Source: Eshraghiella crossota (GTDB taxonomy: Bacteria; Bacillota; Clostridia; Christensenellales; CAG-917). Taken from it: DNA of 64,000 bases. The notes below the pieces were generated by a model, which saw only the letters and a list, made by a program, of their open reading frames with translations, did no database searches and had not been told where the DNA came from. Positions 19,214 to 37,563 of this stretch are shown in pieces (the first letter of the stretch is position 1; the number at the start of each line of letters is the position of its first letter). The stretch covers positions 390 to 64,389 of the forward strand of contig CAVANK010000008.1 in the NCBI GenBank assembly GCA_963590075.1. Reading direction: 5' to 3'. The position numbers and the translations under genes were made by a program.

Positions 19214-19467
19214 AAATTTTCTCCTTTAGAGGTGTTTTTTAAGATGTAAATATTATATATCCTAGCCGAAAATAATTCAATACCCAATTTGTTAAAAAAC
19301 GTGCATTTTTGAAAATTTTTTGCAAAAAATCGCGATTTTGAGGGGTTGCGGTCTCGATTTTCATAAAATTTTAATGTTTTTCGAGCAATTTATTCAAAAA
19401 AGTTGAATATTGAAAAAATCCGTATATAATAAAATCAATAAAGATCTTCATTGTCGAGGTGAATAAT

Positions 19468-21232: not shown

Positions 21233-21715
21233 ATGGCTCATTTAAGTGAGGCGGCTGTTGCTCAAATCAACGCGATTTGCGACAGATACACCGATGAAAA
21301 AACCCCGCTTATGATGATTTTGAGCGATATTCAAAAGGAATACGGATATATTCCCATCGAAGTGCAAGAAATCGTCTCCGAAAGGACGGGGATCTCAGTT
21401 GCGGAAATTTACGGCGTCGTGACTTTCTACTCGTTTTTCTCGTTAGCACCCAAGGGGAAATACGTTATAGGCGTATGTCTCGGCACGGCTTGCTACGTCA
21501 AGGGCGCACAACAAGTTATCGACAAGTTCTGCGAAGTGCTCGGCATCAAGCCCGGTGAAACCACCAAAGACGGTTTGTTTACTATCGACGCATTGCGTTG
21601 TATAGGCGCTTGCGGTATTGCTCCCGCCGTTTCCATCAACGGTCAAGTTTACCCCAAAGTCGCAGTCAATGCCATCCCCGGCATTGTTGACAGTTATAAG
21701 TCGAGGGAGGAATGA
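21233..21715 (+). CDS. hydC: [FeFe] hydrogenase NuoE-like [2Fe-2S] subunit (HydC/HndA type)
   Basis: 160 aa. Thioredoxin-like [2Fe-2S] ferredoxin Cys pattern (CLGTACYVKG...CIGACGIAP). AAAGGAGG RBS. Confidence 0.85.
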   Translation: MAHLSEAAVAQINAICDRYTDEKTPLMMILSDIQKEYGYIPIEVQEIVSERTGISVAEIYGVVTFYSFFSLAPKGKYVIGVCLGTACYVKGAQQVIDKFCEVLGIKPGETTKDGLFTIDALRCIGACGIAPAVSINGQVYPKVAVNAIPGIVDSYKSREE

Positions 21716-21720
21716 TTGAG

Positions 21721-23604: not shown

Positions 23605-23619
23605 AGAGAGGGAATTATT

Positions 23620-25386
23620 ATGGCTAAAATAAATATCAAAATAGAAGGCGTCCCTTATCAAGTCGAACAAGGCTTGACTATCCTTGAAGCGGCAAAGGCT
23701 TGCGGTTACGAAATTCCGTCCCTTTGCGCGTACAATCACGGTGAATGTTCAAGAGGCTCTTGCAGAGTATGTCTCGTCGAGGCTACCGGTGCAAGAGGTC
23801 TCGTGGCGTCTTGCGTGTACCCCGTCGCAGAGGGTATGGAAATCACAATATCTTCCCCCAAAGCGGTGCAAGCAAGAAGATCTTCTGTGGAACTTTTGCT
23901 TTCCAACCACAACCGCAACTGCCAAGAGTGCGACAAGAACGGCAAGTGTGAACTCTTGCACGTAGCCGTCCTCACGGGCGCAAGAGAGGGCATTTATAGC
24001 GGTGAACAAACGCCCGTAACCGTGGATAAACTCACTCCGTCAATCAAGCGCGACACGAGCAAGTGCGTGCTTTGCGGTAGATGTATCGAAAGATGTAAAA
24101 ATGCGCACGGTTTGTCCGTCCTCGGCTTTGAAAAGAGAGGATTCAAGACTATCGTCGCACCGGCAGAGAATAGAAGTTTTGCCAATTCTCCGTGCATTTT
24201 GTGCGGTCAATGCGTAAGCGTTTGCCCCACTGGCGCACTTATGGAAGTGAGCGAAATCGACAAGGTCGACGCCGCGTTCAAAGCGGGCAAATACGTCGTG
24301 GTGCAAGCCGCGCCTGCCGTAAGAGCGGCACTCGGTGAAGAGTTCGGTATGCCTATCGGCTCGCTCGTAACCGGCAAAATGGTCGCCGCGCTTCGTCGTC
24401 TCGGCTTCAAAAAAGTGTTCGACACCAATTTCGGCGCTGACCTCACCATTATGGAAGAGGCAACCGAGCTTCTCGGCAGAGTTAAAGACGGCGGTGTGTT
24501 GCCGATGATTACGTCTTGCTCGCCCGGTTGGATCAACTACGCGGAGTATTACTACGGAGATTTGTTAAATCACCTTTCTTCTTGCAAATCGCCTCACGAA
24601 ATGTTCGGCGCAATCCTCAAAACTTATTATGCGGAACAAAACGGCATCAATCCCGAGGACATGTACGTCGTATCCGTTATGCCTTGCACCGCAAAGAAAT
24701 TCGAGAAAGAGAGGAAAGAACTTTCCACCAACGGTCTCAAAGACGTCGACGCGGTTCTAACTACGAGAGAGCTTGCCAAGATGATCAAGCGCGCGGGCAT
24801 TATGTTCAACAGACTTCCCGACGAGGATTTTGACAACGATATCGTCGGTGAATACACGGGCGCGGGCGTCATCTTCGGCGCAACGGGCGGTGTTATGGAA
24901 GCGGCTCTTCGTACGGCGGTGGCAGTGCTCGACGGCAAAGAACTCGAACACGTCGAACTCACCGAGGTTAGAGGTCTCGAAGGCATCAAAGAAGCGTCCT
25001 ACAACCTCGGCGGTATGGAGGTCAAAGTTGCGGTCGCTCACGGCATGAAGAACGCCAAAGTCCTCCTAGACCAAATCAGAGAAGGCAAGAGCCCGTATCA
25101 CTTCATCGAGATTATGGGTTGCCCCGGCGGATGCGTCGCGGGTGGCGGACAACCTTACGTCAAACCTTGCTTCCTTCCCAACGAGGATGCCGATATTCTC
25201 GATACTTTCCGCGCAAAACGTGCCTCCGCACTTTACCGTGAAGACGAGGGTAAAACCGTTCGTGTCTCCCATAAGAATGCCCAAGTCCAAAAACTCTACG
25301 ACGAGTTTCTCGGCGAGCCGAATAGCCATCTTGCGCATGAGTTGTTACACACTCATTATACCTCCCGCACCCGTTTCCCGAAGTAA
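23620..25386 (+). CDS. hydA: [FeFe] hydrogenase catalytic subunit, trimeric/bifurcating-type domain layout
   Basis: N-terminal 2Fe-2S domain, His-ligated and two ferredoxin-type clusters, then the H-domain with L2 MPCTAKKFE and L3 EIMGCPGGCVAGGGQP. L1 reads TSCSPGW (see findings). Confidence 0.85.
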   Translation: MAKINIKIEGVPYQVEQGLTILEAAKACGYEIPSLCAYNHGECSRGSCRVCLVEATGARGLVASCVYPVAEGMEITISSPKAVQARRSSVELLLSNHNRNCQECDKNGKCELLHVAVLTGAREGIYSGEQTPVTVDKLTPSIKRDTSKCVLCGRCIERCKNAHGLSVLGFEKRGFKTIVAPAENRSFANSPCILCGQCVSVCPTGALMEVSEIDKVDAAFKAGKYVVVQAAPAVRAALGEEFGMPIGSLVTGKMVAALRRLGFKKVFDTNFGADLTIMEEATELLGRVKDGGVLPMITSCSPGWINYAEYYYGDLLNHLSSCKSPHEMFGAILKTYYAEQNGINPEDMYVVSVMPCTAKKFEKERKELSTNGLKDVDAVLTTRELAKMIKRAGIMFNRLPDEDFDNDIVGEYTGAGVIFGATGGVMEAALRTAVAVLDGKELEHVELTEVRGLEGIKEASYNLGGMEVKVAVAHGMKNAKVLLDQIREGKSPYHFIEIMGCPGGCVAGGGQPYVKPCFLPNEDADILDTFRAKRASALYREDEGKTVRVSHKNAQVQKLYDEFLGEPNSHLAHELLHTHYTSRTRFPK

Positions 25387-25412
25387 AAACCGCGCTATTT
25401 AGCGAATAGCAT

Positions 25413-25500
25413 TGTTAAAGCCCCTTGTCCGTCAACTCATTTACGTTTAGTAAATTAGGGTTGCCGTGCAAGGGGCTTTTCCTTGCTCTTCATCTAAATA
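25413..25500 (+). repeat. About 90-nt repeated element, copy 2: 11-bp stem (25417..25427 / 25469..25479) around the same conserved loop
   Basis: AAAGCCCCTTG ... CAAGGGGCTTT encloses CAACTCATTTACGTTTAGTAAATTAGGGTTGCCGT. Starts about 27 nt after the hydA stop. The T-rich tail (TTCCTTGCTCTTCATCTAAAT) is also similar to copy 1. Confidence 0.7.
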
Positions 25501-25804
25501 TCGCAGTTTTTCAAACGCGGTATGCATCAATTATTAATTATTAATAATAAATCATATTGCTAAAAATATAATTCATTTTGAAAATGGACGATATTTTGCG
25601 GTTTTTGATGTAAAATGCGGGGCGGAATGAGCAAAATTAAGGTTGGTTTTTGTTAAATCAGTTGTTTGGATGAATCGATATAAGTGTTGTTTTGTGGTTT
25701 ATACTCGTTTTGTACTTGGCAATACAGTTCATAGTTGCCAATAAAAAGGTGCAAATACGTAGTCGGAATACAAAATCGAGAAATGCTTATAAAATCTATA
25801 TAAC

Positions 25805-25845
25805 AAAAAAAACGGATGGCATTTTTAGATTGCTATCCGTTTTTA
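25805..25845. terminator. Orphan bidirectional terminator-like hairpin
   Basis: A8, stem AACGGATGGCA/TGCTATCCGTT (11 bp with one G-U pair), then T5. No credible CDS within about 400 nt on either side. Confidence 0.5.
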
Positions 25846-26041
25846 CTCTTGCTTTTTAATTAGTCTTGCGCGCGCACTTGTATCAAAGACTACGGCACGT
25901 CTAATCGTCAAATGGGGAAAATTAGGTGGAATCGAGTTATTTACAGTGCCTATTTTTTAACGCATTTTAGAGAAGATTTTGTTGTGCGGTTTGATGTGAT
26001 TGTATGGTTTATGTTGGGTTGATTTTTTATATTTTGTTGAA

Positions 26042-26103
26042 AGGCGTATGCTTGTCTCGGCGAGCGTAGCGAGCCGACTTGTTAAAAAGACAAGCATACG
26101 CCT
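26042..26103 (-). terminator. Long composite hairpin downstream of the ATPase gene
   Basis: Perfect 15-bp arms AGGCGTATGCTTGTC / GACAAGCATACGCCT enclosing an inner TCGGC/GCCGA stem. Lies 32 nt after the minus-strand stop at 26135. Only a weak U-run. Confidence 0.45.
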
Positions 26104-26134
26104 AAGTGTTACAAGGGATAGTTGAGTATGAAAA

Positions 26135-27487
26135 TCAAAGCAACATCGTCATATAAATGGGCAGATATGTTATGCCCGATTCTTCTTTATAATCTGAAGT
26201 GTGAATCACATATGGCATTGCGGTTTGTTCCTCATATTTCGTGCAGAACTTTTGCAAGGAATTGATCGTGTAATTCTTGCCCGATTTGACTTCTATAGGG
26301 GATATGTTGTGTCTGTTGGTGACTTTGCTTTTTGCAATCAAAAAATCTATCTCCATTCTCGATGCAGAATCGTTTTGCGATGCGCTTGAATAGAAATATA
26401 ATTTATGACTAGACGCTACAAGCATTTGCGCAACGATGTTTTCCACAAGCATGCCTTTGTTCACTTCCAACTTGTCAAAAAGCAATTTCTTGTATATTTC
26501 TTCTTCGGCAATGCCTTTTTCGTCGAAAGCGTGGCTTATAAGCAATCCCGTGTCCGCCATATAGCATTTGAGCGTTGTTCTGTCCATATTCAGTTTCAGC
26601 CCTATGTTAGGCGCGGTTGAATTGTAACAGTTGTTGACTATCATTGCGTCATCAAGCCAGAACAAAGCGTCTTCGTATTCACGGAAGCGCGCTTCTTTTT
26701 TTATGGACGAAAGTTTAAACTTTTTCTCGTGTTTTTGCAGTTGCGACGGTATCTCGTCAAATATGCTTTGAACCTTAACCTTGTATCCTTCGGCGTGTTT
26801 GCCGATGTCATTTCTATACAAGGTCAAGATATCTCTTTTTACGGCATCTACCTCATTGAAATCCTTGGTGTTTACATATTTTTCAACCGCTTGCGGCATT
26901 CCGCCCACAATCATATATTGACGGAAATAATCCATTGCTTTTCGGTGGAGCGCCTGTCCCATTGGTTTTTTGTCGTTATAATTTTTGCGGATTAAATCCA
27001 TAAGCGTGTCGTTTCCCATTGCCCACAAAAACTCTTCAAAATCCATAGGATACATTTTTATGTGTCTCTCTTCGGATGGAATGACAATATTTTTGACATT
27101 CTTTTTTATGGAAACGAGCGAGCCTGTTTCGATATAATCGAATCTACCGTCCTCAACGAGATATTTTATAGCTGCGCGCGCTCGCGGAAACATTTGAACC
27201 TCGTCGAAAATAATCAACGATTCTCGCGGATATAGTTTGGTGTTGAAATATGCGCTCAAATACACAAAGAATGTGTCCAAATCGTTCAGATATGCGTCGA
27301 ATAAATTCTTGACGTCGTTTCCGACTTTGTTAAAATCAATGACTATATACGATTTGTAATATTCTTGTGCAAATTCTTCTGTAATATAACTTTTGCCGAC
27401 ACGTCTTGCGCCGTCGATTAAAAGGGCGGTTTGCCCGTTTGAAGATTGCTTCCATTCAATCATTTTATCAAAGATTTTGCGTTTCAT
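26135..27487 (-). CDS. AAA+ ATPase with C-terminal PD-(D/E)xK-like domain (AAA_14 + DUF4143 architecture)
   Basis: Walker A GARRVGKSY, Walker B LIIFDEVQ, and a C-terminal EIDFLI...PIEVKSGK motif. ATG 27487 (GGGAG RBS) is preferred over the GTG at 27493. Confidence 0.8.
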   Translation of the reverse strand: MKRKIFDKMIEWKQSSNGQTALLIDGARRVGKSYITEEFAQEYYKSYIVIDFNKVGNDVKNLFDAYLNDLDTFFVYLSAYFNTKLYPRESLIIFDEVQMFPRARAAIKYLVEDGRFDYIETGSLVSIKKNVKNIVIPSEERHIKMYPMDFEEFLWAMGNDTLMDLIRKNYNDKKPMGQALHRKAMDYFRQYMIVGGMPQAVEKYVNTKDFNEVDAVKRDILTLYRNDIGKHAEGYKVKVQSIFDEIPSQLQKHEKKFKLSSIKKEARFREYEDALFWLDDAMIVNNCYNSTAPNIGLKLNMDRTTLKCYMADTGLLISHAFDEKGIAEEEIYKKLLFDKLEVNKGMLVENIVAQMLVASSHKLYFYSSASQNDSASRMEIDFLIAKSKVTNRHNISPIEVKSGKNYTINSLQKFCTKYEEQTAMPYVIHTSDYKEESGITYLPIYMTMLL

Positions 27488-27743
27488 ACACACTCCCGCA
27501 TCACGTTTTTGAGATTTTTATAATGACATATTATCACGTTTTCGCGATTTTTACAATAATAATATATCACATAATCAATGGTTTTTCAATAGAGATTTAG
27601 CAAAATTATGATATATTTTGGCTTTTGTTTCGCAATACTTTGTGCCCTGTTCTGTGGTTTCACCACGGCTTTTATGTATGATGCGAACAACGGTTGATTT
27701 TAGGAATTATAATCTATTCTAATGTTAGTAGCTATATACAGTG

Positions 27744-27773
27744 TTGACAAAATGTGCGGAATCGTCGTATTAT
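27744..27773 (+). promoter_or_regulatory. Candidate sigma-A promoter of the LRR lipoprotein / small ORF / SIR2 transcription unit
   Basis: TTGACA, 18 nt, TATTAT, about 190 nt upstream of ATG 27963. Confidence 0.5.
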
Positions 27774-27962
27774 AGAGGTGCGATAAACTTAAAATCTGAT
27801 AAGAAAGACCTTTTACTTCGGTAACAGGTGCATTTTTCGCGTTACATAGCTTTCTTATCAGACATAGCATGTGGGTTTATCGCAAAAATCAGCGGGGATG
27901 CACTTGTTATATTTTTACTAGATCATTTGAAAATCCCTGCAATACAAACTGCGAGGGAGAGC

Positions 27963-30900
27963 ATGAGAGCCCACAAAAAGCAACGTATATTTATCATTTT
28001 AGCCATTTTGACAATGGCGGTCATTTTGACGTGCATTTTTGCCGCTTGCGACAAAACCGGTGCGCAAGACAAAAATTATACTGTCACCATACATCCAAAC
28101 AACGGACAACCCGATATCGTTTGGGATGTCGCCACTGACATTCCGTCCATAACGAAATATGGATATCACATTGTCGGTTTTTATCTTGACGAGGGGATGA
28201 CAACAAGCACAACGCTTGAATCCTTGAAGTCATCCGAACTGACAAGCAATTTGGACGTATATGTCAAATGGGAAAAGGATAGTGTGCCGCCAAAAACCAA
28301 AATCAGCACAAACAAATTGCTTTGCGATTACGATACTAGAACTTTAAGCGGAAAGGTGTCCAATTCAACGACAGTATTTTCGTTTAGCGATGAGATTTCC
28401 GTTGAAAAAGGTGCAACATACACTGTTTCGACCGATATTACCGGAATCAACGTGATTCCGAGCAAAACTGTGAATCTTGAGATTGGCGATAATGTTTTTT
28501 ACATTGTAGTTTCAAACGAAGATGAGCTCACGTTGTATACAGCGACAGTGCGTCGCAGACCGATATATGAAGTCGTTTTTAACGTAAAAGGCGGAACGGA
28601 AGTCGAAGCGCAACAGGTTGAAGAAGATGATTTCGCAACTGCGCCAACTACTGAAAAAAACGGTTGCACATTTGAAAGGTGGGATTGGGATTTTGCAACA
28701 TCGATTACTAAAAACACAACCATAACAGCAATTTGGAATGCTTTTACATATAATATCATTTACGACTTGAATATTCCCGAGGATTCTGTAAGCCAAGATG
28801 TTGACAACTCAAGGAATCCGACAACATACACCGTTGATGATACGATATATTTTTCTGCGCCTAGACGAAACGGTTATTATTTTACCGGTTGGAGTGTGGA
28901 CAGAATTGTTAAAGGCACAACGGGAACGGTAAAGACGACAGCGCAATGGAGTCCGATTACCTATGAAATTATATATGATTTTGGTGATTCCAAATCGGTA
29001 AGCAAGGCGACAAACAGCGATTTGAATCTAAGGTATTATAATATCGAGAGCGAAATCACATTCGCTGAACCAACAAGAGCCGGTTATTCGTTTGTATCTT
29101 GGGACAAGAATATTGCAAAAGGTACAACCGGTACGCAAATAATAACTGCAAGTTGGAGTGTTATCGATTACGATATTGTGTACAATTTTGGTGATACTTC
29201 TTCTGCCAGCAAAGCCATAAACAATGAACTAAATCCAGCAACTTATACTGTTGAGGACGAAATTGTATTCGCCGAACCAACAAGAACAGGATATGAATTC
29301 TTATCTTGGGACAAGAACATTGTAAAAGGCATGACTAATGAACAAACTATAACTGCTAGCTGGTCAATTATCGATTATGACATCATTTACGACCTTGGCG
29401 ATGCTGATTCCGTAAGTAAGGCTACCAACAACGATTCAAACCCGACAACGTATACCATTGAGGACGAAATCATTTTTGAAACCCCTACAAGGCAGTATTA
29501 TGAGTTTGTTGAATGGAGTAAAAACATTTCAAAAGGTAGCGTCGGTAACCAAAATGTTGTTGCGGTATGGAAAGCTGAAACACATACGATAACATATGTG
29601 TTGAACAATTGGACGAATGTCGCCGACAACAAAAATACATATACAATTGAAGATCAAACATTTGCTTTGTTCGATGGCGTAAAAGGAGAAAGTCTTTTCT
29701 GTGGATGGTATCTAGATGATGAGTACACGAATTACATCGAAACGATAGATGCATCATCAATGAAGGATTACATTGTTTATGCAATGCCGGATTGTGGTGC
29801 TACAAAGGGATTATCTATTGAAAACGGTGTTGTAAAAAGCTATTCAGGTACATCAACAAATGTTGTTATCCCGTCTTATTACAAAGGCTACGCTGTTGTG
29901 AGCATTGTCAAAGCTGTTTTCAATAATTGCACAAATTTGACGAGCGTGACAATCCCCGACAGCGTGACAAGCGTTGGTAGTTCTGCATTTTCCGGTTGCA
30001 CGGGATTGACAAAAATAACAGGGCCTTCCGACATGGTTTCCACTGTTGCAAAACAGTGCAACAGCACGGCGGTTGAGGAGATTGTTATAACAAGCGGAAC
30101 AAGCATCGGTTATGATGCCTTCTCTGGTTGCAGTGGTTTAACAAGCGCCACAATTTCGGATAGTGTGACGAGCATCGGTTATTATGCTTTCTCAGGTTGC
30201 GACAAACTTCAGAACATATATATAGCTGACATGGTGGCATGGTGCAATATTTCAGGATTAGATGATTTGATGGAATATGGATCAAGCAACAAGAATTTGT
30301 ACCTTGACAATGAACTTGTTACATCGGTTTCAATCCCTAACGAAGTAACCACCATCCCGTCTTATGCTTTTTATGGTTGTGAGAGTATTGTAAATGTAAT
30401 TATTCCCGACACCGTAACGAGTGTTGGCAATTATGCATTCTCTGGCTGCACTAACCTTCAAAATATATACATTGCTGACATAGTGGCGTGGTGCAATATT
30501 TCAGGGTTGAATTGGTTGATGGAATATGGTACAAGCAACAAAAATTTATATCTAAACAATGAACTTGTTACATCGGTTACAATTCCTCTCAGTGTGACAA
30601 GCATCGGCAGGTCTGCATTTAATGGGTGTAGCAGTCTGACGAGTATCACGATTCCAGACACAGTGACGAGTGTTGGTAGTTCTGCATTTTCCGGTTGCAC
30701 GGGATTGACAAAAATAACAGGACCTTCCGACATGGTTTCCACTGTTGCAAAACAGTGCAACAGCAAGGTGCTTGAGATTGTTATAACAAGCGGAACAAGC
30801 ATCGGCTCTTCTGCCTTCTCTGGTTGCAGTGGTTTAACAAGCGTCACAATTTCGGATAGTGTGACGAGCATCGGCTCTTATGCATTCTCAGGGTGCACCG

Positions 30901-32147
30901 GTTTGATGAGCGTCACAATCCCGGACGGTGTGACGAGTATTGGCGATTACGCTTTTCGTGATAGCAGCAGTTTAACAACAGTCACATGGAATGCAATTGC
31001 GTGTGCAACTGTTGGATCTTCATATTCTTCTGTTTTTTCAGGGTGTTCTAACCTTGCTATTGTGAACATTGGAAATAATGTAACTATTATTCCGTCCTAT
31101 GTCTTTTATAATTGTAACGGTTTGACGAGCATTACAATTTCGGATAGTGTGACGAGCATCGGCTCTTATGCATTCTCAGGGTGCACCGGTTTGATGAGCG
31201 TCACAATCCCGGACGGAGTGACGAGTATTGGCGATTCTGCCTTCTCAAACTGCAGTGGATTGACGAGTGTCACAATTGGCAACAGTGTGATGAGCATCGG
31301 TGAGAATGCATTTTTGGGTTGCTGGCGACTGATTGAAGTGTACAACAAATCGTCGTTGACGATAATAGCCGATAGCAACGATAACGGGCGTGTCGCATCT
31401 AATGCAAAAAATGTGTATACGGACACAGAAGGCGAAAGCAAACTTTCAAATGACAACGGTTATGTTGTATATACTGACGGGACAGAAAAGATTTTAGTGG
31501 CGTATACCGGCACTGAGACTGAATTGTCATTGCCATCATATATAACCCAAATCAACGAGTTCGCATTCTATGAATGTGCCGAGTTGACATTCATAACAAT
31601 CCCGAACAGCGTAAAGAGCATTGGCTATTCCGCCTTTTCAAGTTGCACGGGGTTGACAAGCATCACAATCCCTAACAGTGTGACGAGCATTGGTGGTTCT
31701 GCTTTCTCTGGTTGTATCGGACTCACAAGCATTATTGTTGAAAAGGGAAATCTTAACTATCATAGCGACGGCAATTGCTTGATTGCAACCGCAACCAAAA
31801 CACTGATTTTGGGTTGCCAAAACAGTGTCATCCCTTCCGATGGTAGTGTGACGAGCATCGAAAGTTATGCCTTCCAGTATTGTGGCGACTTGACAAGCAT
31901 CATTATTCCGGACGGCGTGACGAGCATCGGCGGTTTGGCCTTCTATAGATGCACTGACTTGACAAACATCACTATCCCCGACAGCGTAACCAACATTGGC
32001 TATGGTGCTTTCCGAAACTGTAGCGGACTGACAAACATTAATTTTGAAGGCACAAAAGAACAATGGAATGCAATCACAAAAGGCGATAATTGGAACGATG
32101 GTGTCGCAACCAACTGCACAATTACTTGTTCCGACGGAACGATATAA
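27963..32147 (+). CDS. Large surface lipoprotein: Listeria-Bacteroides (Flg_new) repeats followed by BspA-type leucine-rich repeats
   Basis: Start moved to ATG 27963 (GAGGGAGAGC RBS), giving MRAHKKQRIFIILAILTMAVILTCIFAAC, a signal peptide with a lipobox-like FAAC. Repeated GY.F..W...I.KGTTG....A.W modules are followed by more than 25 copies of the roughly 23-aa L.S..IP.SVTSIG..AF.GC..L repeat. Confidence 0.85.
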   Translation: MRAHKKQRIFIILAILTMAVILTCIFAACDKTGAQDKNYTVTIHPNNGQPDIVWDVATDIPSITKYGYHIVGFYLDEGMTTSTTLESLKSSELTSNLDVYVKWEKDSVPPKTKISTNKLLCDYDTRTLSGKVSNSTTVFSFSDEISVEKGATYTVSTDITGINVIPSKTVNLEIGDNVFYIVVSNEDELTLYTATVRRRPIYEVVFNVKGGTEVEAQQVEEDDFATAPTTEKNGCTFERWDWDFATSITKNTTITAIWNAFTYNIIYDLNIPEDSVSQDVDNSRNPTTYTVDDTIYFSAPRRNGYYFTGWSVDRIVKGTTGTVKTTAQWSPITYEIIYDFGDSKSVSKATNSDLNLRYYNIESEITFAEPTRAGYSFVSWDKNIAKGTTGTQIITASWSVIDYDIVYNFGDTSSASKAINNELNPATYTVEDEIVFAEPTRTGYEFLSWDKNIVKGMTNEQTITASWSIIDYDIIYDLGDADSVSKATNNDSNPTTYTIEDEIIFETPTRQYYEFVEWSKNISKGSVGNQNVVAVWKAETHTITYVLNNWTNVADNKNTYTIEDQTFALFDGVKGESLFCGWYLDDEYTNYIETIDASSMKDYIVYAMPDCGATKGLSIENGVVKSYSGTSTNVVIPSYYKGYAVVSIVKAVFNNCTNLTSVTIPDSVTSVGSSAFSGCTGLTKITGPSDMVSTVAKQCNSTAVEEIVITSGTSIGYDAFSGCSGLTSATISDSVTSIGYYAFSGCDKLQNIYIADMVAWCNISGLDDLMEYGSSNKNLYLDNELVTSVSIPNEVTTIPSYAFYGCESIVNVIIPDTVTSVGNYAFSGCTNLQNIYIADIVAWCNISGLNWLMEYGTSNKNLYLNNELVTSVTIPLSVTSIGRSAFNGCSSLTSITIPDTVTSVGSSAFSGCTGLTKITGPSDMVSTVAKQCNSKVLEIVITSGTSIGSSAFSGCSGLTSVTISDSVTSIGSYAFSGCTGLMSVTIPDGVTSIGDYAFRDSSSLTTVTWNAIACATVGSSYSSVFSGCSNLAIVNIGNNVTIIPSYVFYNCNGLTSITISDSVTSIGSYAFSGCTGLMSVTIPDGVTSIGDSAFSNCSGLTSVTIGNSVMSIGENAFLGCWRLIEVYNKSSLTIIADSNDNGRVASNAKNVYTDTEGESKLSNDNGYVVYTDGTEKILVAYTGTETELSLPSYITQINEFAFYECAELTFITIPNSVKSIGYSAFSSCTGLTSITIPNSVTSIGGSAFSGCIGLTSIIVEKGNLNYHSDGNCLIATATKTLILGCQNSVIPSDGSVTSIESYAFQYCGDLTSIIIPDGVTSIGGLAFYRCTDLTNITIPDSVTNIGYGAFRNCSGLTNINFEGTKEQWNAITKGDNWNDGVATNCTITCSDGTI
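29973..30865 (+). repeat. In-frame direct repeat pair inside the LRR gene, 699-nt period
   Basis: 29973..30066 matches 30672..30765 with one mismatch over 94 nt. The match continues with small gaps to 30178 and 30865. Confidence 0.85.
30846..31236 (+). repeat. In-frame direct repeat pair inside the LRR gene, 288-nt period
   Basis: 30846..30948 matches 31134..31236: 103 nt with a single mismatch (GGACGGTGTG versus GGACGGAGTG). Confidence 0.9.
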
Positions 32148-32175
32148 AAAATAAACCAAAAAAAGGAGCACACAA

Positions 32176-32496
32176 ATGAACAAAGGTACAATTAGCAAGA
32201 TTAAAATTGACGATAAATATCGCTATTGCATAAGACTTGAAAACACAGTAAAAATTAAAGATAAGAATGGAAAAGAGCTTGAGTATAATGTTTTTCTTTT
32301 TGAAACGAATAATCCCGCACCAGATGCAAAACTCGTTCCTGTAGAAGATGTGTATACTTTTGAAAAGGATTTGACGTCACTTTTGGGCAAGAAACTCGAA
32401 TTTTGTATTGATTTTGTCTCAAAAGAGAACAACGACAAAACAGAGAGTGCTGCTAAAGAAAAAATCATATTGAAATCAGTTGAGTATGAAGCGTAA
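32176..32496 (+). CDS. Small hypothetical protein (106 aa), partner of the SIR2-like gene
   Basis: AAGGAG RBS 7 nt upstream. Starts 29 nt after the LRR gene stop with no terminator in between. Soluble and Lys/Glu-rich, with no motif I recognise. Its stop overlaps the next gene by 17 nt. Confidence 0.6.
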   Translation: MNKGTISKIKIDDKYRYCIRLENTVKIKDKNGKELEYNVFLFETNNPAPDAKLVPVEDVYTFEKDLTSLLGKKLEFCIDFVSKENNDKTESAAKEKIILKSVEYEA

Positions 32497-33718
32497 AACT
32501 ATATATATTATCGGTGCGGGGTCAACTGCTGCGTTGGGTATTCCAACATCTGATAAACAAAAGATATTTTTTGAAAAGTTGGCAGAGAGTGGCGACGAAA
32601 CGCTCTGCCAACTCTATCGTATTGTAACTAAAAGATTCGCAAATAGGGATTATGGCATCAACGATGTGTTTAATTTGATTGACACGGCATTGTTCCTAAA
32701 AACGGGATTGTATGACGATGTAGAGAGAATAGAATACATAGAATTGTTGCGCACAAAACGCGAACTTATTTCGTGTATTTTTGAGGAATTCAAAAATAAA
32801 ATCGCAACAATTGATGATTGCGCTTATGAAAAGTATGTCAACTTTTATTATCAACTTGCAAAAAGGGAGTTGGCTAAAAAGATTGAGTGCAATGTTGATA
32901 TGCAAAAGCGCGAGTTTTTCATAGCCGATTATTCTATCATAAACTTCAATTGGGATTTGTGTTCATTATTCCCTATTATAGAGTCGAATAAACTACTTAA
33001 TCACGAAAACGACAGATATATCAATAAGGAAGGCTTTCCCCAGTTGAGAATGTACACAGACTTTAATTACGAGTGTGCATCGACACTAAATGATTTGCCA
33101 TGGTATCCATTTACCGAGCCGGCGGCGGCTATCGCAAATTCTGATAAACATATGGGTAAAAGACGTGTCGTTTTGCTGAAAGCGTTTTATCCGCACGGTC
33201 TTATGAACTCTTTCAAATGCCCCAAATGCGCTCGTCACTCATTGTATCTTGGAAATCAGTTGGAAATAAAAGAAGTCAGTAAATCGATAGATTATAGCAA
33301 AGATAAACCACTTTACAAATGCCCGAATTGTGGTGCGGAGATAAGTGCAAAAGACTTCAACATTCTTGTGCAATCTAACTTTAAAGAGAGAAACTCTTTT
33401 CTCGAAGAAACACGCATAAAAATGTTTTGCGAACTCGAATCTGCTGAAAAGCTGGTCTTTATCGGGTATTCGATGCCTCAAGACGATGTTGATTATAGAA
33501 CGTTTTTCAAGTCGCTCAACAATGTAAAAGGAGCACACGTGGTTTTACATGACAAAAACTCGCATGACTTCAAAATGATATCCGATGGCGATGATTTTAG
33601 TAATTATTCAGACGAAACAAGAACAGCGATAGGAAATTATCTTTCAATATTCAAGAATATATGTCTCAACACAAAAGGCTTTCCTGATGCCGCTGATGAT
33701 ATTCTAAGAATCGAATAA
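32480..33718 (+). CDS. Stand-alone SIR2 (sirtuin)-like protein with retained zinc ribbon
   Basis: 412 aa with an ordered motif set: IIGAGSTAALGIPT (aa 11-24), FNWD (N157/D159), YPHG (H239), CPKC-30 aa-CPNC (C247/C250/C281/C284) and LVFIGYSMPQDD (aa 325-336). No additional recognisable domain. Confidence 0.75.
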   Translation: MSMKRKTIYIIGAGSTAALGIPTSDKQKIFFEKLAESGDETLCQLYRIVTKRFANRDYGINDVFNLIDTALFLKTGLYDDVERIEYIELLRTKRELISCIFEEFKNKIATIDDCAYEKYVNFYYQLAKRELAKKIECNVDMQKREFFIADYSIINFNWDLCSLFPIIESNKLLNHENDRYINKEGFPQLRMYTDFNYECASTLNDLPWYPFTEPAAAIANSDKHMGKRRVVLLKAFYPHGLMNSFKCPKCARHSLYLGNQLEIKEVSKSIDYSKDKPLYKCPNCGAEISAKDFNILVQSNFKERNSFLEETRIKMFCELESAEKLVFIGYSMPQDDVDYRTFFKSLNNVKGAHVVLHDKNSHDFKMISDGDDFSNYSDETRTAIGNYLSIFKNICLNTKGFPDAADDILRIE

Positions 33719-33727
33719 ACTATATGT

Positions 33728-33759
33728 AAAAGTGGTTCGCTATGTGTGAGTCACTTTTT
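33728..33759 (+). terminator. Candidate terminator after the SIR2-like gene
   Basis: 7-bp stem AAAAGTG/CACTTTT with a 17-nt loop, running into T5, 10 nt after the stop. Confidence 0.4.
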
Positions 33760-34178
33760 GCAGTATGTTAGTTGTTCGTTTTATCCATGAATATGGTCTT
33801 GAATATGCCTCTCGATAATGATATAATATGTATATCAAAAGTCGGGAGGCAATGAAGTGCACACCCAAAGTTTTACATTTTGTCCAACTTTTGGGTTCAC
33901 GTCACAATTATGGATGATTTTGAATTGTTTTTTCAAAAACATCGAAAACCTTGTAAATTTTACAAAAAAATGAATAGTTGAGACATATGGGACATTTTTG
34001 TCCCATAACTTCTCGTATAATCGAGATAAACGAAGCAGTTTATTAAAAATTAGCCGAATGTGCGCAATTTTTATAAAAGACAAAAGCAATTGCGCTAGCG
34101 AATATTGCGGATTTTGAGCTAAAATACGGCATTTTATGCCCGTAAAACGATAATTTTTGTTTAATAGAGGCAAAAGGG

Positions 34179-34208
34179 TTGAAAATTGCGCGGATAGTGG
34201 TATATAAT
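34179..34208 (+). promoter_or_regulatory. Candidate sigma-A promoter of the second Flg_new lipoprotein gene
   Basis: TTGAAA, 18 nt, TATAAT, 49 nt upstream of ATG 34257. Confidence 0.5.
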
Positions 34209-34256
34209 TATCGAGAAATATCAGTAATAAATTAACAAAAGAAGAGTATCGCACCG

Positions 34257-35651
34257 ATGACAAGCCATAACGGATATACATTTGGAAAAACCGTAAAACG
34301 TATATTTTTAATTTTTGCCATAACTTGCTTGTCGATAACGACTGTTTGCTTGCTTTGCGCGTGCGATTCTGACGATGTAAACAACTTGTTTCAGCCTTCC
34401 GCTTTTATAACTTTTGTCCTAAACAACGGTGAAGTGGATATAATTTGGCAATACGGCGACGCCGTGCCGACACCCGTGAAGGACGGATTTGAATTTTTAT
34501 ATTGGTGCACCGATATCGAATGTGAAAACAAAGCCGAAATAAATTTTGACGAAACCCCTAAAACGGATATTATTTTGTATGCCAAGTGGAAAGAATTGCT
34601 CGACCTTCAAGACGTCGTGTTTGAAAATATGAGCGTCGTGTATGACGGGAACAAGCATTCCATTGCGGTCAATTTGCCGAGCGGTGCTTCTATCGAGTAC
34701 GTCGGAGAGCATGAATTTATAAATGTCGGCACTTATACCGTGAGCGCAATCGTTTCAAAAGACGGCTATAAAGATTTGAATAAGAGCGCAACGCTCACCA
34801 TTGAAAAAGCAAAGATCGAAAAAGTTGAATTTGAAGACAAGACTATCGTTTGGGACGGTGAAAAACATAGCATTTTCGTGAGTACGGAACTTCCCGAAGA
34901 GATAAAAATCACGTATACGGGTAACGGTATCGGCGATGTCGGCGAACATTTGGTTGTCGCACACTTTGACGTCGGCACGAATTATGAACAGATTGCCGAA
35001 GTCAGCGCGATTTTGAAGATCGAACCGCTTATGCACACAGTTATTTTCGATTATGGTGACCGTACAGAAACGATTAAAGTCGAACACGGCAAAAACATAG
35101 AGAATCCACCGACTCCTACGGCAAGAACGGGTTATATCGCGACGTGGGATAAGAGTCTCGAAAACGTAACTTCGGATATGACGGTTTCTATAAAATACAC
35201 GCTTGCAACGTACGATATCGTCTATAACTATGATTGCGACAAGACGGGGTGGACGTTGACTTATAATATGGAAACGGAAGTGATTTTGCCTGCCGCTACG
35301 AGAGATTATTATGTATTTGACGGTTGGTATACCGCGGACGGAAAGAAAGTGGAAAAGATTGAAAGAGGCAGTGTCGGTGACATCGTTCTTTATGCCTCGT
35401 GGACGCCTATCGAATACAAGATTATTTTCCACGGTGAAATCGACGAATATATAAACGATACGAACAATAAGTACAATTCCGCTTTTACCGTTGAAAGCGA
35501 GACGTTTATTTTGTACGGCGCGACGAGACACGGTTACGTTTTCGCGGGTTGGTACGACAATCCCGAATGCGTCGGCGAACCGATAACCGCACGCGAAAAG
35601 GGCACGCACGGAGATTTGCACCTTTACGCAAAATGGGTGGAAGAGACTTGA
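34257..35651 (+). CDS. Surface lipoprotein with Listeria-Bacteroides (Flg_new) repeats
   Basis: Signal peptide with the Cys cluster LLCACDSD. Repeated GY.F.GWY......V..I..G..GD..LYA.W modules (for example YYVFDGWYTADGKKVEKIERGSVGDIVLYASW). Confidence 0.8.
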   Translation: MTSHNGYTFGKTVKRIFLIFAITCLSITTVCLLCACDSDDVNNLFQPSAFITFVLNNGEVDIIWQYGDAVPTPVKDGFEFLYWCTDIECENKAEINFDETPKTDIILYAKWKELLDLQDVVFENMSVVYDGNKHSIAVNLPSGASIEYVGEHEFINVGTYTVSAIVSKDGYKDLNKSATLTIEKAKIEKVEFEDKTIVWDGEKHSIFVSTELPEEIKITYTGNGIGDVGEHLVVAHFDVGTNYEQIAEVSAILKIEPLMHTVIFDYGDRTETIKVEHGKNIENPPTPTARTGYIATWDKSLENVTSDMTVSIKYTLATYDIVYNYDCDKTGWTLTYNMETEVILPAATRDYYVFDGWYTADGKKVEKIERGSVGDIVLYASWTPIEYKIIFHGEIDEYINDTNNKYNSAFTVESETFILYGATRHGYVFAGWYDNPECVGEPITAREKGTHGDLHLYAKWVEET

Positions 35652-35805
35652 TAGTCGTTTTTGCATCGAAGAGTTTTGCCGTAGTCCTATAAATTTCAAA
35701 AAGACTTTGGCATATTTTGTCCTTTTGGTATTCGTTAAATAAAATATTGCCATAGAAGTTGCGGAGTGGTATAATACAAAAAAATAAATAGTTTCTAGGC
35801 GAAAG

Positions 35806-37563
35806 ATGAAAAGAGATATTGAAAAATTGCAAGAGTTCGTAAAAGACGGCGGAATCGACGCATATATCGTGTTTACGAGCGACGATCACGGCAGTGAATA
35901 CGTCGTGGACCACTTCAAAACGCGTGAGTTTCTTTGCGGATTTACGGGAAGCGCGGGCACTCTCGTGGTGACGAGAGACGGCGCGTATCTGTGGACGGAC
36001 GGAAGATATTTTATCCAAGCGGCGGAGCAACTCAAAGCAACGGATACCGTGCTCATGAAAGCGGGCGAAGAGGGTGTGCCGTCTATTTTCGAGTTTGTGA
36101 AAAAACTTTCCGACATGCCCAAAATCGCATTTGATTTTTGTACGGCTACGGTTGAATTCGTCGAAGCGTTGAAAAAAAGCGTCAAGGGCGTTGAAATCGT
36201 CGATTGCGGTGAAATTATTGACCGTATTTGGCAAGATCGTCCCGAAGTCGCGCCTACGAAGGCGTGGTTTTTGCCCGATAACGCGACGGGTGAGAGCGTA
36301 AAAAGCAAGATTGAAAACTTGCAAAAAGACCTTGAAAAACAAGGTTGCGAATACGCGCTCGTGTCCTCGCTTGATGATATTGCGTGGCTTTTCAATATGC
36401 GTGGAAGCGATATAGAGTACAATCCCGTCAATTACGCGTACGCAATCGTGTCCAAGGACGGCGCGACGTTGTTTATAGACGATAGAAAACTCGATGCGAA
36501 ATGCAATAAAATTCTTGCGGAAAACGATATAAACGTATTGCCGTATAGCGACGTTTACGGCGTGGTTTCGCAAATAGAGGGAAGAGTGCTTATCGACAAG
36601 GAAAAGACCAATTACGCACTGTTTTCTCGCATAAAGGACGTCAAAGAGACGGAAGCTTTCCCCACGACCGTGAGAAAGGCAATCAAGAACGCGGTCGAGA
36701 TAAAAAATATGAAAAAAGCGCACGTCGAGGACGGCGTTGCGGTGCTCAAATTTATGCGTTATCTCAAAGAGAACGCGGGCAAAGAGATTATGAGCGAGAT
36801 TTCGCTTGCGGACAAACTCGAAGCGTTTAGAAGAGAAAGCAGAAACTTCCTCGACCTCAGTTTCGACACCATTTGCGGATACGCTTCAAACGGCGCAATC
36901 GTGCATTATTCCGCAACTCCCGAGACGGACAAAGTCGTTGAAAACAAGGGATTGCTCCTCGTCGACAGCGGTGCGCAATACCGCTACGGCACGACGGATA
37001 TAACCCGTACGTTTGCGATGGGAAAGGTTACGAATGAGGAAAAGCGCGCTTTTACCATCGTGCTTAAATCGCATATCGCACTTGCAAGAGCGACGTTCCC
37101 CAAAGGAACGACGGGCGCACGCCTCGATATGATTTCGAGAGCGCCGATGTACGCTTACGGTATGGACTTCAAGCACGGCACGGGACACGGCGTTGGATAT
37201 TTGCTCAACGTTCACGAAGGACCGCAAAATATCTCACCGAGAGCGTTTACGCCCAAATACGCAGTTTTGCCGGGAATGATTACGTCCAACGAACCCGGAT
37301 TTTACGAGGAAGGCAAGTTTGGTATAAGACACGAAAATCTCGTGCTTTGCGTGGAAAAGGAAAAGACGGAATACGGCACGTTTTGCGCATTCGAGACGAT
37401 AACGCTCGTGCCTTTCGACCTTGACGCAATAGACGTAAAACTGCTTGACGAGGGTGACAAAGCGTGGCTCAACGCATATCATAAGAGCGTGCGCAAGACC
37501 ATCGGCAAGTACCTCGTCGGCAAAGATTTGAAGTTCCTCGAAAGAGCGACGAGAGAAATCTGA
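35806..37563 (+). CDS. Xaa-Pro aminopeptidase (M24B, aminopeptidase P family)
   Basis: 585 aa. Creatinase-like N-domains plus an M24 pita-bread domain with metal ligands (DSGAQY...DITRT, HGTGHGVG, SNEPGFYE). Confidence 0.85.
   Translation: MKRDIEKLQEFVKDGGIDAYIVFTSDDHGSEYVVDHFKTREFLCGFTGSAGTLVVTRDGAYLWTDGRYFIQAAEQLKATDTVLMKAGEEGVPSIFEFVKKLSDMPKIAFDFCTATVEFVEALKKSVKGVEIVDCGEIIDRIWQDRPEVAPTKAWFLPDNATGESVKSKIENLQKDLEKQGCEYALVSSLDDIAWLFNMRGSDIEYNPVNYAYAIVSKDGATLFIDDRKLDAKCNKILAENDINVLPYSDVYGVVSQIEGRVLIDKEKTNYALFSRIKDVKETEAFPTTVRKAIKNAVEIKNMKKAHVEDGVAVLKFMRYLKENAGKEIMSEISLADKLEAFRRESRNFLDLSFDTICGYASNGAIVHYSATPETDKVVENKGLLLVDSGAQYRYGTTDITRTFAMGKVTNEEKRAFTIVLKSHIALARATFPKGTTGARLDMISRAPMYAYGMDFKHGTGHGVGYLLNVHEGPQNISPRAFTPKYAVLPGMITSNEPGFYEEGKFGIRHENLVLCVEKEKTEYGTFCAFETITLVPFDLDAIDVKLLDEGDKAWLNAYHKSVRKTIGKYLVGKDLKFLERATREI

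What the first reader, a model, noticed from the sequence alone, without database searches (positions are those of the whole stretch)
32176..33718. Overlapping small ORF plus stand-alone sirtuin-like SIR2 gene: candidate undescribed NAD-targeting defence or toxin-antitoxin-like module
**SIR2-like protein.** The 412-aa protein carries the full ordered sirtuin motif set:
- Rossmann GAGS (aa 12-15)
- N-x-D (FNWD, N157/D159)
- catalytic-position His (YPHG, H239)
- a CxxC-30-CxxC zinc ribbon (C247/C250/C281/C284)
- FIGYS (aa 327-331)

About 70 uncharacterised C-terminal residues follow.

**What is missing.** It has none of the partner domains of the SIR2 defence systems I know:
- no SLOG domain (ThsA)
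- no TIR partner
- no HerA helicase
- no pAgo
- no STAND NTPase
- not the >1000-aa DSR1/DSR2 format

**Partner ORF and context.** It is preceded by a 106-aa soluble ORF with a good RBS, and that ORF's stop overlaps the SIR2 start by 17 nt. A small gene first with an overlapping junction is the classic antitoxin/modulator-effector layout. The pair lies in an AT-richer island next to an ATPase-nuclease gene. It follows the LRR lipoprotein gene by 29 nt with no terminator, and a hairpin plus T-run closes the unit.

**Alternative.** Because the zinc ribbon is retained, a protein deacylase or ADP-ribosyltransferase acting on the small protein is equally possible.
Basis: partly seen in the sequence, partly recalled or inferred. 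Interest (0 to 1): 0.8.

Follow-up and report, generated by a model that had tools for sequence, protein, structure and literature searches.

The report
Orphan sirtuin-like enzyme with small partner
A rare two-gene unit in gut Clostridia pairs a very divergent, zinc-binding sirtuin-like (NAD-using) enzyme with a fast-evolving 100-residue protein of unknown fold; it belongs to no named system, almost always sits beside a cell-surface adhesin-like gene, and is most likely a new conflict or defence module, though this is unproven.

Summary
A 106-aa ORF (32176-32496) overlaps a 410-aa ORF; the true start is ATG 32486, giving an 11-nt overlap, not 17.

**Large protein.** It misses every Pfam, NCBIfam and PADLOC threshold. 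Its AlphaFold model (pLDDT 90) is nevertheless a SIR2 fold, closest to the NADase of SIR2-HerA defence systems. His237 and the four cysteines align with the catalytic His and zinc ribbon of Thermotoga Sir2.

**Small protein.**
- It is a true gene (dN/dS 0.13-0.31) of an orphan family: 33 clusters among 1.84 billion proteins.
- It lies directly upstream of the SIR2-like gene in nearly all ~35 loci, across Clostridia, Bacteroidales and Victivallales.
- Four or five lineages keep an intact SIR2-like gene after losing or breaking it. It is therefore not an indispensable antitoxin.

**Context.**
- The pair has lower GC than its flanks and decays often.
- One version shares 91% DNA identity between two phyla.
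- It sometimes neighbours McrBC, WYL regulators, AbiEii or PDC-S01.
- No phage or plasmid copy was found.
- In the close family it is always in an operon-like arrangement with an LRR_5/Flg_new surface-protein gene.

**Verdict.** This is a new SIR2-based two-gene module. Its function is inferred, not shown.

The parts
32176..32496 (+). Small partner gene: 106 aa, beta-rich, orphan family.
   Evidence: - ORF with an AGGAG ribosome-binding site.
- dN/dS is 0.13-0.31.
- Homologs lie directly upstream of the SIR2-like gene in most loci.
- No hit in Pfam, NCBIfam, PADLOC, PHROGs or PDB.
- Only 33 clusters among 1.84 billion representatives.
- Only N38 and K73 are nearly invariant.
- The AlphaFold model has low confidence (pLDDT 58) and is all-beta with one short helix.
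32486..33718 (+). Divergent SIR2-superfamily gene (410 aa from ATG 32486; the listed ORF begins at TTG 32480). It has a helical cap plus a Cx2C-30-Cx2C zinc ribbon.
   Evidence: - 105 homologs.
- Invariant GAG, NWD, PHG, four Cys and GYS.
- AlphaFold model: pLDDT 90, pTM 0.90.
- Foldseek matches: SIR2 of SIR2-HerA at E = 3e-8, then classical sirtuins, ThsA and SPARSA.
- hhalign places H237 and the Cys pairs on H116 and C124/C127/C148/C151 of Sir2Tm.
- Pfam SIR2 and SIR2_2 hits fall below threshold.
32486..32496 (+). 11-nt overlap of the small gene's stop with the SIR2-like start. This is a probable translational-coupling junction.
   Evidence: Read directly from the sequence. Overlaps of 4-17 nt occur in 11 of 13 loci examined.
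27828..32147 (+). Upstream lipoprotein gene with Listeria-Bacteroides (Flg_new-type) repeats and BspA-type LRR_5 repeats. The probable start is ATG 27963. It is probably co-transcribed with the pair.
   Evidence: - ORF and lipobox-like signal (…ILTCIFAAC).
- 69-nt periodic repeats.
- Promoter-like site at 27744-27773, and no terminator before the small ORF.
- A homologous surface-protein gene is adjacent to the pair in every close-family locus that has enough flanking sequence, except L007.
- No Pfam search was run on the window's own protein. The Pfam names come from its homologs in the other loci.
33725..33762 (+). Hairpin followed by a U-run just after the SIR2-like stop codon. It is terminator-like.
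   Evidence: Fold of -17 kcal/mol with z = -2.9. The consensus terminator scan did not call it.
26138..27493 (-). Neighbouring AAA_14 + DUF4143 ATPase gene, a homolog of the PADLOC candidate PDC-S01. It is context, not shown to be part of the module.
   Evidence: - Pfam hits and PADLOC hit at E = 1e-121.
- The same kind of gene lies near the pair in L007, in L045/L046 (two copies) and as a fragment in L049.

Best explanation
The pair is a self-contained, horizontally mobile two-gene conflict module, most likely anti-phage or abortive-infection.

**Proposed mechanism**
- The 410-aa protein is an NAD+-consuming SIR2-superfamily effector.
- The translationally coupled ~100-aa beta-rich protein is its regulatory or specificity subunit. 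It would act as a sensor or adaptor that holds or positions the enzyme, not as an indispensable antitoxin.
- On a trigger the enzyme would hydrolyse NAD+, or transfer ADP-ribose, and arrest the cell.

**Shown**
- SIR2 fold and intact catalytic motifs.
- Conserved pairing of the two genes.
- The small gene is coding.
- Patchy and mobile distribution.
- Absence from named systems.

**Inferred**
- NAD+ consumption.
- Physical complex between the two proteins.
- Trigger-dependent activation.
- A defence role.
For: **Fold and active site**
- The SIR2 fold is predicted with high confidence, and the nearest solved structures are the NADase subunits of SIR2-HerA defence complexes.
- GAG, N155/D157 and H237 are invariant, so the NAD-site residues are under selection.

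**Pairing**
- The pairing is conserved from 94% down to about 20% small-protein identity, across Clostridia, Bacteroidales and Victivallales, with overlapping junctions.
- The small gene evolves faster than the enzyme gene and shows a different synonymous divergence. Window against L001 gives pS 0.72 for the small gene and 0.30 for the large one. This fits a diversifying specificity subunit and recombination between the two genes.

**Accessory behaviour**
- The family is rare: about 16 of 185,579 species genomes.
- The pair has lower GC than its flanks in most loci.
- 91% nucleotide identity, confined to the pair, links an Acetobacterium genome and a Bacteroidales MAG.
- Truncated and remnant copies occur.

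**Defence or mobile-element neighbours in several loci**
- PDC-S01 homolog in the window.
- McrB/McrC and a caspase-domain protein in L015; a WYL-WCX regulator in L012; integrase, ISL3, MNT-type nucleotidyltransferase and Schlafen AlbA_2 in L010.
- HsdR, T5orf172 and a resolvase in L045.
- AbiEii, TnpV, WYL and a serine recombinase in L047.
Against: - There is no experimental or phage evidence.
- No PADLOC model matches.
- Most loci are not recognisable defence islands.
- In the close family the constant neighbour is a surface LRR_5/Flg_new protein gene in operon-like spacing, which a pure defence model does not explain.
- The zinc ribbon at the canonical sirtuin position is typical of protein-directed sirtuins. 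It is not described for the SIR2 of SIR2-HerA, whose small domain is all-helical (PMC11514289).
- The family is absent from the phage, plasmid and IMG/VR collections, so there is no evidence of carriage on such elements.
- The small protein's fold is unresolved.
Confidence: 0.45

Rival explanations
1. This is a protein-modifying sirtuin, not a defence NADase. The enzyme deacylates or ADP-ribosylates a protein substrate. The small protein is either that substrate or carrier, through its near-invariant Lys73 or Asn38, or an adaptor. The module serves the adjacent surface-protein gene, for example in its expression, maturation or export.
For: - The canonical zinc ribbon sits directly after the catalytic His, as in protein deacylases. 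Classical sirtuins are also significant fold matches.
- The only near-invariant polar residues of the small family are one Asn and one Lys.
- The arrangement with an LRR_5/Flg_new/Cthe_2159 surface-protein gene is operon-like, with gaps mostly of 15-40 nt. It holds in essentially every close-family locus and in several different chromosomal backgrounds.
- Loss of the small gene is tolerated.
Against: - The more distant pairs (L010-L013, L015) have no surface-protein neighbour.
- The surface proteins are exported lipoproteins, while both module proteins lack signal peptides.
- The Phe-Arg of the sirtuin cofactor-binding loop (GIPDFR in Sir2Tm) is not present after GAGST.
- Frequent decay, low GC and cross-phylum transfer fit an accessory conflict gene better than a maturation factor.
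- No macrodomain or lipoate ligase gene is present, unlike the SirTM/GcvH-L operons.
Confidence: 0.25
2. This is a classical type II toxin-antitoxin addiction module. The small upstream protein is a labile antitoxin that neutralises a constitutively toxic SIR2 NADase, stabilising the surrounding DNA, including the surface-protein gene.
For: - Small gene first, with an overlapping junction.
- Variable, partly low-complexity segments in the small protein.
- Mobile, low-GC context.
Against: - Intact SIR2-like ORFs with all catalytic residues persist without a functional small gene in L007 (absent), L055 (clean deletion), L037 (5' truncation; the same protein on 13 contigs) and L042/L071 (frameshift or undetectable).
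- The small protein has no DNA-binding domain hit.
- Its pI ranges from 4.6 to 10.3.
Confidence: 0.12
3. The association with LRR genes is passive. The pair is simply linked to a multi-copy, recombination-prone surface-protein gene family and has no current cellular role. On this view it is a decaying or selfish passenger, or the SIR2 fold is used for a function that does not involve NAD.
For: - Truncated copies (L061-L065), a remnant copy (L072/L073) and small-gene-less copies occur.
- LRR genes are interrupted by serine-recombinase elements next to the pair in L047 and L055.
- The family is very rare.
Against: - Both genes are under strong purifying selection (dN/dS 0.13-0.31).
- More than 40 columns are invariant in the enzyme across sequences down to 31% identity, including every NAD-site motif.
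- The pairing persists in distant phyla without LRR genes.
Confidence: 0.1

Closest known systems
SIR2 subunit of the SIR2-HerA (Nezha) anti-phage system
   Same: It is the best structural match (8uae_B, E = 3e-8, TM about 0.5). Both are stand-alone SIR2 proteins of about 400 aa with a large helical cap, encoded in a two-gene unit.
   Different: - No HerA or other ATPase partner is present in any locus.
- Sequence identity is only about 11-13%.
- No PADLOC SIR2 model matches.
- This family carries a Cx2C...Cx2C zinc ribbon after the catalytic His. The SIR2-HerA small domain is described as all-helical (PMC11514289).
- The partner here is a ~100-aa beta-rich protein.
Classical sirtuin deacylases (Sir2Tm, Sir2-Af1/Af2, CobB, SIRT2/SIRT5)
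   Same: - GAGxS, N-x-D, catalytic His-Gly, and a zinc ribbon at the same position.
- Significant fold matches.
   Different: - Pfam SIR2 scores 11.7 bits against a cut-off of 24.
- The cofactor-loop Phe-Arg motif is absent.
- There is a ~110-residue helical insertion, plus extra invariant motifs: YTDFN, WYPFTEPAA and QSNFK.
- The C-terminal motif is GYS...DD, of the SIR2_2 type.
- The context is accessory and mobile.
Thoeris ThsA, DSR1/DSR2, SPARSA and Avs5 SIR2 effectors
   Same: All use a SIR2 catalytic domain, and these systems deplete NAD+. ThsA and SPARSA give weaker fold matches.
   Different: None of their sensor or partner domains is present: no SLOG, TIR, long C-terminal sensor region, APAZ/pAgo or STAND NTPase (and the neighbour tables).
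SirTM / GcvH-L / macrodomain operons of Firmicutes
   Same: A sirtuin-type enzyme is encoded next to a small (~100 aa) beta-rich protein that could be its substrate. This comparison rests on established knowledge, not on a test here.
   Different: - No macrodomain or lipoate-protein ligase gene is present.
- The small protein has no lipoyl or biotinyl domain hit.
- The enzyme does not reach the Pfam SIR2 threshold.

Membership tests
SIR2 superfamily (fold level) | Rossmann-type NAD-binding fold with a small cap domain, similar to solved SIR2 structures. | tested here: met
   The AlphaFold model has pLDDT 90. Foldseek gives probability 1.0 to SIR2-HerA SIR2, Sir2-Af, Sir2Tm, SIRT2/5, CobB and ThsA.
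SIR2 superfamily (fold level) | Conserved GAGxS, N-x-D and catalytic His. | tested here: met
   G10 A11 G12, N155/D157 and H237 are invariant in 27 sequences. H237 aligns with H116 of Sir2Tm (the Sir2Tm sequence was verified).
Pfam SIR2 (PF02146) / SIR2_2 (PF13289) | Score at or above the curated gathering threshold. | tested here: not met
   SIR2 scores 11.7 bits (cut-off 24) and SIR2_2 scores 12.7 bits (cut-off 24.5). Only 7 of 27 members give even weak SIR2_2 hits.
Classical sirtuin deacylases | Cx2C...Cx2C zinc ribbon following the catalytic His. | tested here: met
   C245/C248/C279/C282 are invariant. They align with C124/C127/C148/C151 of Sir2Tm.
Classical sirtuin deacylases | Cofactor-binding loop with conserved Phe-Arg after GAGxS (GIPDFR). 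| tested here: not met
   The family reads GAGST..L.IPT, with only P20 invariant and no conserved F-R.
SIR2-HerA (Nezha) | Adjacent HerA-type ATPase gene. | tested here: not met
   No HerA/FtsK-type gene lies next to the pair in the window or in any fetched locus. PADLOC gives no hit.
Thoeris type I (ThsA/ThsB) | SLOG domain fused to SIR2, plus a TIR-domain ThsB gene. | tested here: not met
   No SLOG or TIR domain in either protein or in the neighbours.
DSR1/DSR2 | Single protein of more than 1000 aa, with an N-terminal SIR2 domain and a long C-terminal sensor region. | tested here: not met
   The protein is 410 aa, and homologs are 391-435 aa.
SPARSA / Avs5 / Kongming | Short pAgo with APAZ, a STAND NTPase, or KomA/KomB partners. 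| tested here: not met
   None of these domains occurs in the protein or its neighbours (and the neighbour tables).
Type II toxin-antitoxin module | Small upstream gene overlapping the effector gene. | tested here: met
   The overlap is 11 nt in the window and 4-17 nt in most loci.
Type II toxin-antitoxin module | The antitoxin is indispensable whenever the toxin gene is intact. | tested here: not met
   L007, L037, L042 and L055 carry intact SIR2-like genes without an intact small gene.
Type II toxin-antitoxin module | Toxicity of the effector, neutralised by its partner. | not testable with these tools
   This needs expression experiments.
SirTM/GcvH-L operon | Macrodomain and LplA-like genes, and a lipoyl-carrier fold in the small protein. 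| tested here: not met
   No such neighbours are present. The small family has no Pfam hit.
Anti-phage defence system (generic) | Enrichment next to known defence genes. | tested here: inconclusive
   Defence-type neighbours occur in a minority of loci: PDC-S01, McrBC, WYL, AbiEii, HsdR. No formal enrichment statistic was computed.

The most novel reading that the evidence does not exclude
The conserved unit is really three genes. An exported LRR_5/Flg_new surface lipoprotein would be functionally coupled to a cytoplasmic zinc-ribbon SIR2 enzyme and its small partner. Two possibilities:
- a guard arrangement, in which the SIR2 pair responds when a phage exploits or perturbs that surface protein;
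- a sirtuin-dependent step that controls production of a variable adhesin.

Either would be a kind of coupling not described for any SIR2 system.
Probability: 0.12. Interest if true: 0.8.

Novelty: new variant of a known kind. Interest (0 to 1): 0.55.

Why it matters
SIR2 NADases are a recurring effector of bacterial immunity, but each known system is defined by its sensor partner. Here the partner is a previously unseen ~100-aa protein family. The SIR2 domain itself is a hybrid: it has the helical cap seen in defence NADases and also keeps the zinc ribbon of protein-directed sirtuins.

If the module is active, it would add a minimal SIR2 system from hard-to-culture gut and rumen Clostridia. 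It would also give a compact model for how a tiny subunit gates a sirtuin-fold enzyme.

The strict linkage to BspA-like surface-protein genes is unexplained. It could connect NAD-based conflict systems to cell-surface variation in gut commensals.

Tried and rejected
**Sequence and profile searches**
- Pfam, NCBIfam, PADLOC and PHROGs on both proteins gave nothing significant.
- Scanning 27 SIR2-like members and 38 small-protein members one by one against Pfam also gave nothing.
- Sequence and profile searches of the PDB returned only zinc-finger noise.

**Small-protein structure**
- The AlphaFold model has low confidence (pLDDT 58).
- Its Foldseek matches are all non-significant (best E = 0.4). 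OB-fold ssDNA-binding proteins appear among them, but I do not use this as evidence.

**Wider searches for the small protein**
- An exhaustive profile search of 1.84 billion representatives found 33 clusters and no informative domain fusion.
- The single 235-aa hit, P0136, is a read-through from a truncated cytidylyltransferase gene.

**Mobile-element and RNA searches**
- The phage, plasmid and IMG/VR collections hold no homolog.
- BFVD returned only a giant-virus sirtuin.
- Rfam found no RNA element in 25300-35900.

**Literature**
- Searches found no described system with this architecture. The library is limited to open-access text.

**Rejected readings**
- The small ORF as a chance ORF.
- Classical TA with an indispensable antitoxin.
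- Membership of Thoeris, SIR2-HerA, DSR, SPARSA, Avs5 or the SirTM operons.
Full report
**1. The observation**

- The small ORF (32176-32496, 106 aa) starts with ATG, 8 nt downstream of an AGGAG motif.
- The large ORF is listed from TTG 32480. All database homologs begin at the in-frame ATG 32486 (MKRKT...), including P0001, which is 100% identical over 410 aa.
- The overlap is therefore 11 nt (ATGAAGCGTAA) rather than 17. Overlaps of 4-17 nt recur in 11 of 13 homologous loci examined.
- The upstream lipoprotein gene ends 28 nt before the small ORF. No promoter-like or terminator-like site was predicted in between.
- A hairpin with a U-run follows the stop codon of the large ORF (-17 kcal/mol, z = -2.9).
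- The pair has GC 0.36. The neighbouring hydrogenase and peptidase genes have 0.47-0.52.

**2. The large protein is a very divergent SIR2-fold enzyme**

Sequence-profile libraries fail to classify it.
- Pfam SIR2 gives E = 0.25 and SIR2_2 gives E = 0.14. There is nothing significant in NCBIfam, PADLOC or PHROGs.
- Only 7 of 27 family members give even weak SIR2_2 hits.

Structure and motifs do classify it.
- An AlphaFold2 model built on 27 homologs is confident (pLDDT 90, pTM 0.90).
- Foldseek places it in the SIR2 fold. The best matches are the NADase subunits of SIR2-HerA complexes (8uae_B, E = 3e-8, TM about 0.5). These are followed by archaeal, bacterial and human sirtuins, ThsA and the SPARSA SIR2.
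- A profile-to-sequence alignment puts H237-G238 on the catalytic H116-G117 of Thermotoga Sir2. It puts the four cysteines on that enzyme's zinc ligands.

The protein combines two features.
- It has a ~110-residue helical cap (helices 22-134 in the model), as in defence-type SIR2 proteins. The small domain of SIR2-HerA SIR2 is described as all-helical (PMC11514289).
- It also has the zinc ribbon of classical protein-directed sirtuins.
- The Phe-Arg of the sirtuin cofactor loop is not conserved.
- Extra invariant motifs (YTDFN, WYPFTEPAA, QSNFK, DD after GYS) point to a family-specific site.

**3. The small protein is a real, orphan, fast-evolving partner**

- Between related loci its dN/dS is 0.13-0.31.
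- A profile of it detects an ORF immediately upstream of the SIR2-like gene in nearly every locus recovered from GTDB genomes, public assemblies and JGI/ENA metagenomes.
- This includes distant pairs in which the enzyme is only 25-31% identical: Acetobacterium wieringae, a Bacteroidales MAG, Oscillospiraceae, Ruminococcus and Victivallales.
- An exhaustive HMMER scan of 1.84 billion representative proteins finds just 33 clusters. Almost all are stand-alone proteins of 84-130 aa.
- It has no Pfam, PDB or PADLOC relative.
- Its model is low-confidence (pLDDT 58): all-beta with one short helix. Fold matches are not significant.
- Across 38 sequences only Asn38 (in the YN motif) and Lys73 (in KKxxF) are nearly invariant. 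pI ranges from 4.6 to 10.3.
- Between the window and L001 the small gene has pS 0.72 and the enzyme gene 0.30. This indicates recombination between the two genes and faster turnover of the small one.

**4. The small gene is dispensable for keeping the enzyme gene intact**

Several lineages carry an intact SIR2-like ORF with all invariant residues but no intact small gene.
- L007 (Erysipelotrichaceae) has no small ORF.
- L055 has a clean deletion that joins the small gene's ribosome-binding site and first two codons to the enzyme.
- L037 retains only the C-terminal two-thirds of the small gene, after a deletion that also cut the LRR gene. That enzyme protein, P0083, occurs on 13 contigs.
- L042 has a frameshift. 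In L071, which encodes the same type of enzyme, the profile detects no small ORF.

This argues against a classical antitoxin. Other copies show the gene pair decaying:
- 5'-truncated enzymes lacking GAGS (L061-L065; P0066, 60 member sequences);
- a 70-residue remnant beside a transposase-like ORF that I judged by eye to be IS30-family (L072/L073).

**5. Context**

In the window the order of genes is as follows.
- NAD synthase (19459-20220) and, from 21233 to 25386, three genes of a [FeFe]-hydrogenase cluster.
- A low-GC stretch that contains, in order:
  - an AAA_14-DUF4143 gene on the minus strand, matching PADLOC candidate PDC-S01 at E = 1e-121;
  - the LRR/Flg_new lipoprotein gene;
  - the pair;
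  - a second Flg_new/MBG lipoprotein gene.
- M24 and M20 peptidase genes.

- In every close-family locus with enough flank, except L007, a surface-protein gene lies immediately next to the pair on the same strand. It is of the LRR_5 and/or Flg_new type, and once Cthe_2159.
- It is usually upstream, with gaps mostly of 15-40 nt. In L044-L046 it is immediately downstream, and in L042/L071 it lies further downstream on the same strand.
- L007 instead has a different 1010-aa lipoprotein gene directly downstream.
- The wider flanks differ from locus to locus: MutS/MutL, serpin, an ABC transporter, EF-Tu, serine recombinases, a type I restriction subunit.
- The distant pairs lack the surface gene and sit in mobile or defence-like settings:
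  - integrase, ISL3, MNT nucleotidyltransferase and Schlafen AlbA_2 in L010;
  - a WYL-WCX regulator in L012;
  - McrB/McrC and a caspase-domain protein in L015.
- L010 and L011 share 91% nucleotide identity over 1774 nt, which is exactly the pair, across two phyla. A binning error in the MAG cannot be excluded.
- The pair has lower GC than its surroundings in most loci.
- No copy was found in the phage, plasmid or IMG/VR collections.

**6. Interpretation**

The evidence establishes a conserved two-gene module built on an intact SIR2-fold active site.

I rank the conflict or defence reading first (about 0.45). In this reading the enzyme is an NAD+-consuming effector and the small protein is a regulatory or specificity subunit. 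The reasons are:
- the nearest structures are defence NADases;
- the distribution is rare, patchy, low-GC and decay-prone;
- the partner diversifies quickly;
- there is a minority of defence and mobile-element neighbours.

The main rival (about 0.25) is a protein-directed sirtuin tied to the surface-protein operon, with the small protein as substrate or adaptor. It draws on the retained zinc ribbon, the conserved Lys and Asn of the small protein, and the strict linkage to surface-protein genes.

A classical TA module (about 0.12) is disfavoured by the small-gene-less lineages. A passive passenger or non-NAD function (about 0.1) is disfavoured by the strong purifying selection.

NAD+ consumption, complex formation and any phage phenotype are inferred, not shown.

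**7. Novelty**

- No named SIR2 system fits: Thoeris, SIR2-HerA, DSR1/2, SPARSA, Avs5, Kongming or SirTM. Each fails on its defining partner (see the membership table).
- No PADLOC model matches any family member tested.
- Open-access literature searches found no description.
- I classify it as a new variant of a known kind: a SIR2-based two-gene module with a new partner family and a zinc-ribbon-bearing SIR2 clade.
- Interest is moderate. New SIR2 architectures are expected by specialists. The minimal size, the hybrid domain structure and the unexplained coupling to BspA-like surface-protein genes make it worth an experiment.

Noticed in passing
window 26138-27493 (-); also L007 73-1503 (-), L045 6042-7316 and 11503-12759, L049 10447-10773: An AAA_14 + DUF4143 ATPase gene, matching PADLOC candidate PDC-S01 at E = 1e-121, recurs within a few kb of the pair in four otherwise different loci. 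In L045 it flanks the pair on both sides.
   Followed up: partly
L047 6157-8644; L055 3355-7963: Large serine recombinase genes lie directly upstream of 5'-truncated LRR_5 genes that precede the pair. This suggests that mobile elements integrate into these surface-protein genes.
   Followed up: no
L010 1840-3598 against L011 2447-4203: 91% nucleotide identity, confined to the two-gene pair, links Acetobacterium wieringae (Bacillota) and a Bacteroidales MAG. L010's small ORF and P0136 retain a fragment of a cytidylyltransferase gene at the 5' side.
   Followed up: partly
L061-L065 (for example L064 8058-9089): One lineage carries a 5'-truncated SIR2-like ORF of 343 aa that lacks the GAGS motif. 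It is present on at least five contigs and corresponds to P0066, with 60 member sequences.
   Followed up: partly
window 27982-28006 and 34297-34321; window 34257-35651: A second lipoprotein gene (Flg_new + MBG_3) follows the pair after a 540-nt gap. It shares a 25-nt stretch, in the signal-peptide region, with the upstream LRR lipoprotein gene.
   Followed up: no
window 33719-34256: This 540-nt stretch has no convincing ORF and no Rfam match. It contains promoter-like sites at 33799-33827 and 34179-34208.
   Followed up: partly
L017 5995-7143 and 8057-9058: A distant SIR2_2-type relative in a Pyrinomonadaceae MAG lies about 900 nt upstream of an ORF whose N-terminus looks like a TIR domain by eye. 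This would be a Thoeris-like arrangement. The TIR assignment was not checked with a profile.
   Followed up: no
L004 705-943: Weak extra matches to the small-protein profile (E = 5e-4 and 0.01) lie just upstream of the intact small ORF. They may be a degenerate duplicate.
   Followed up: no
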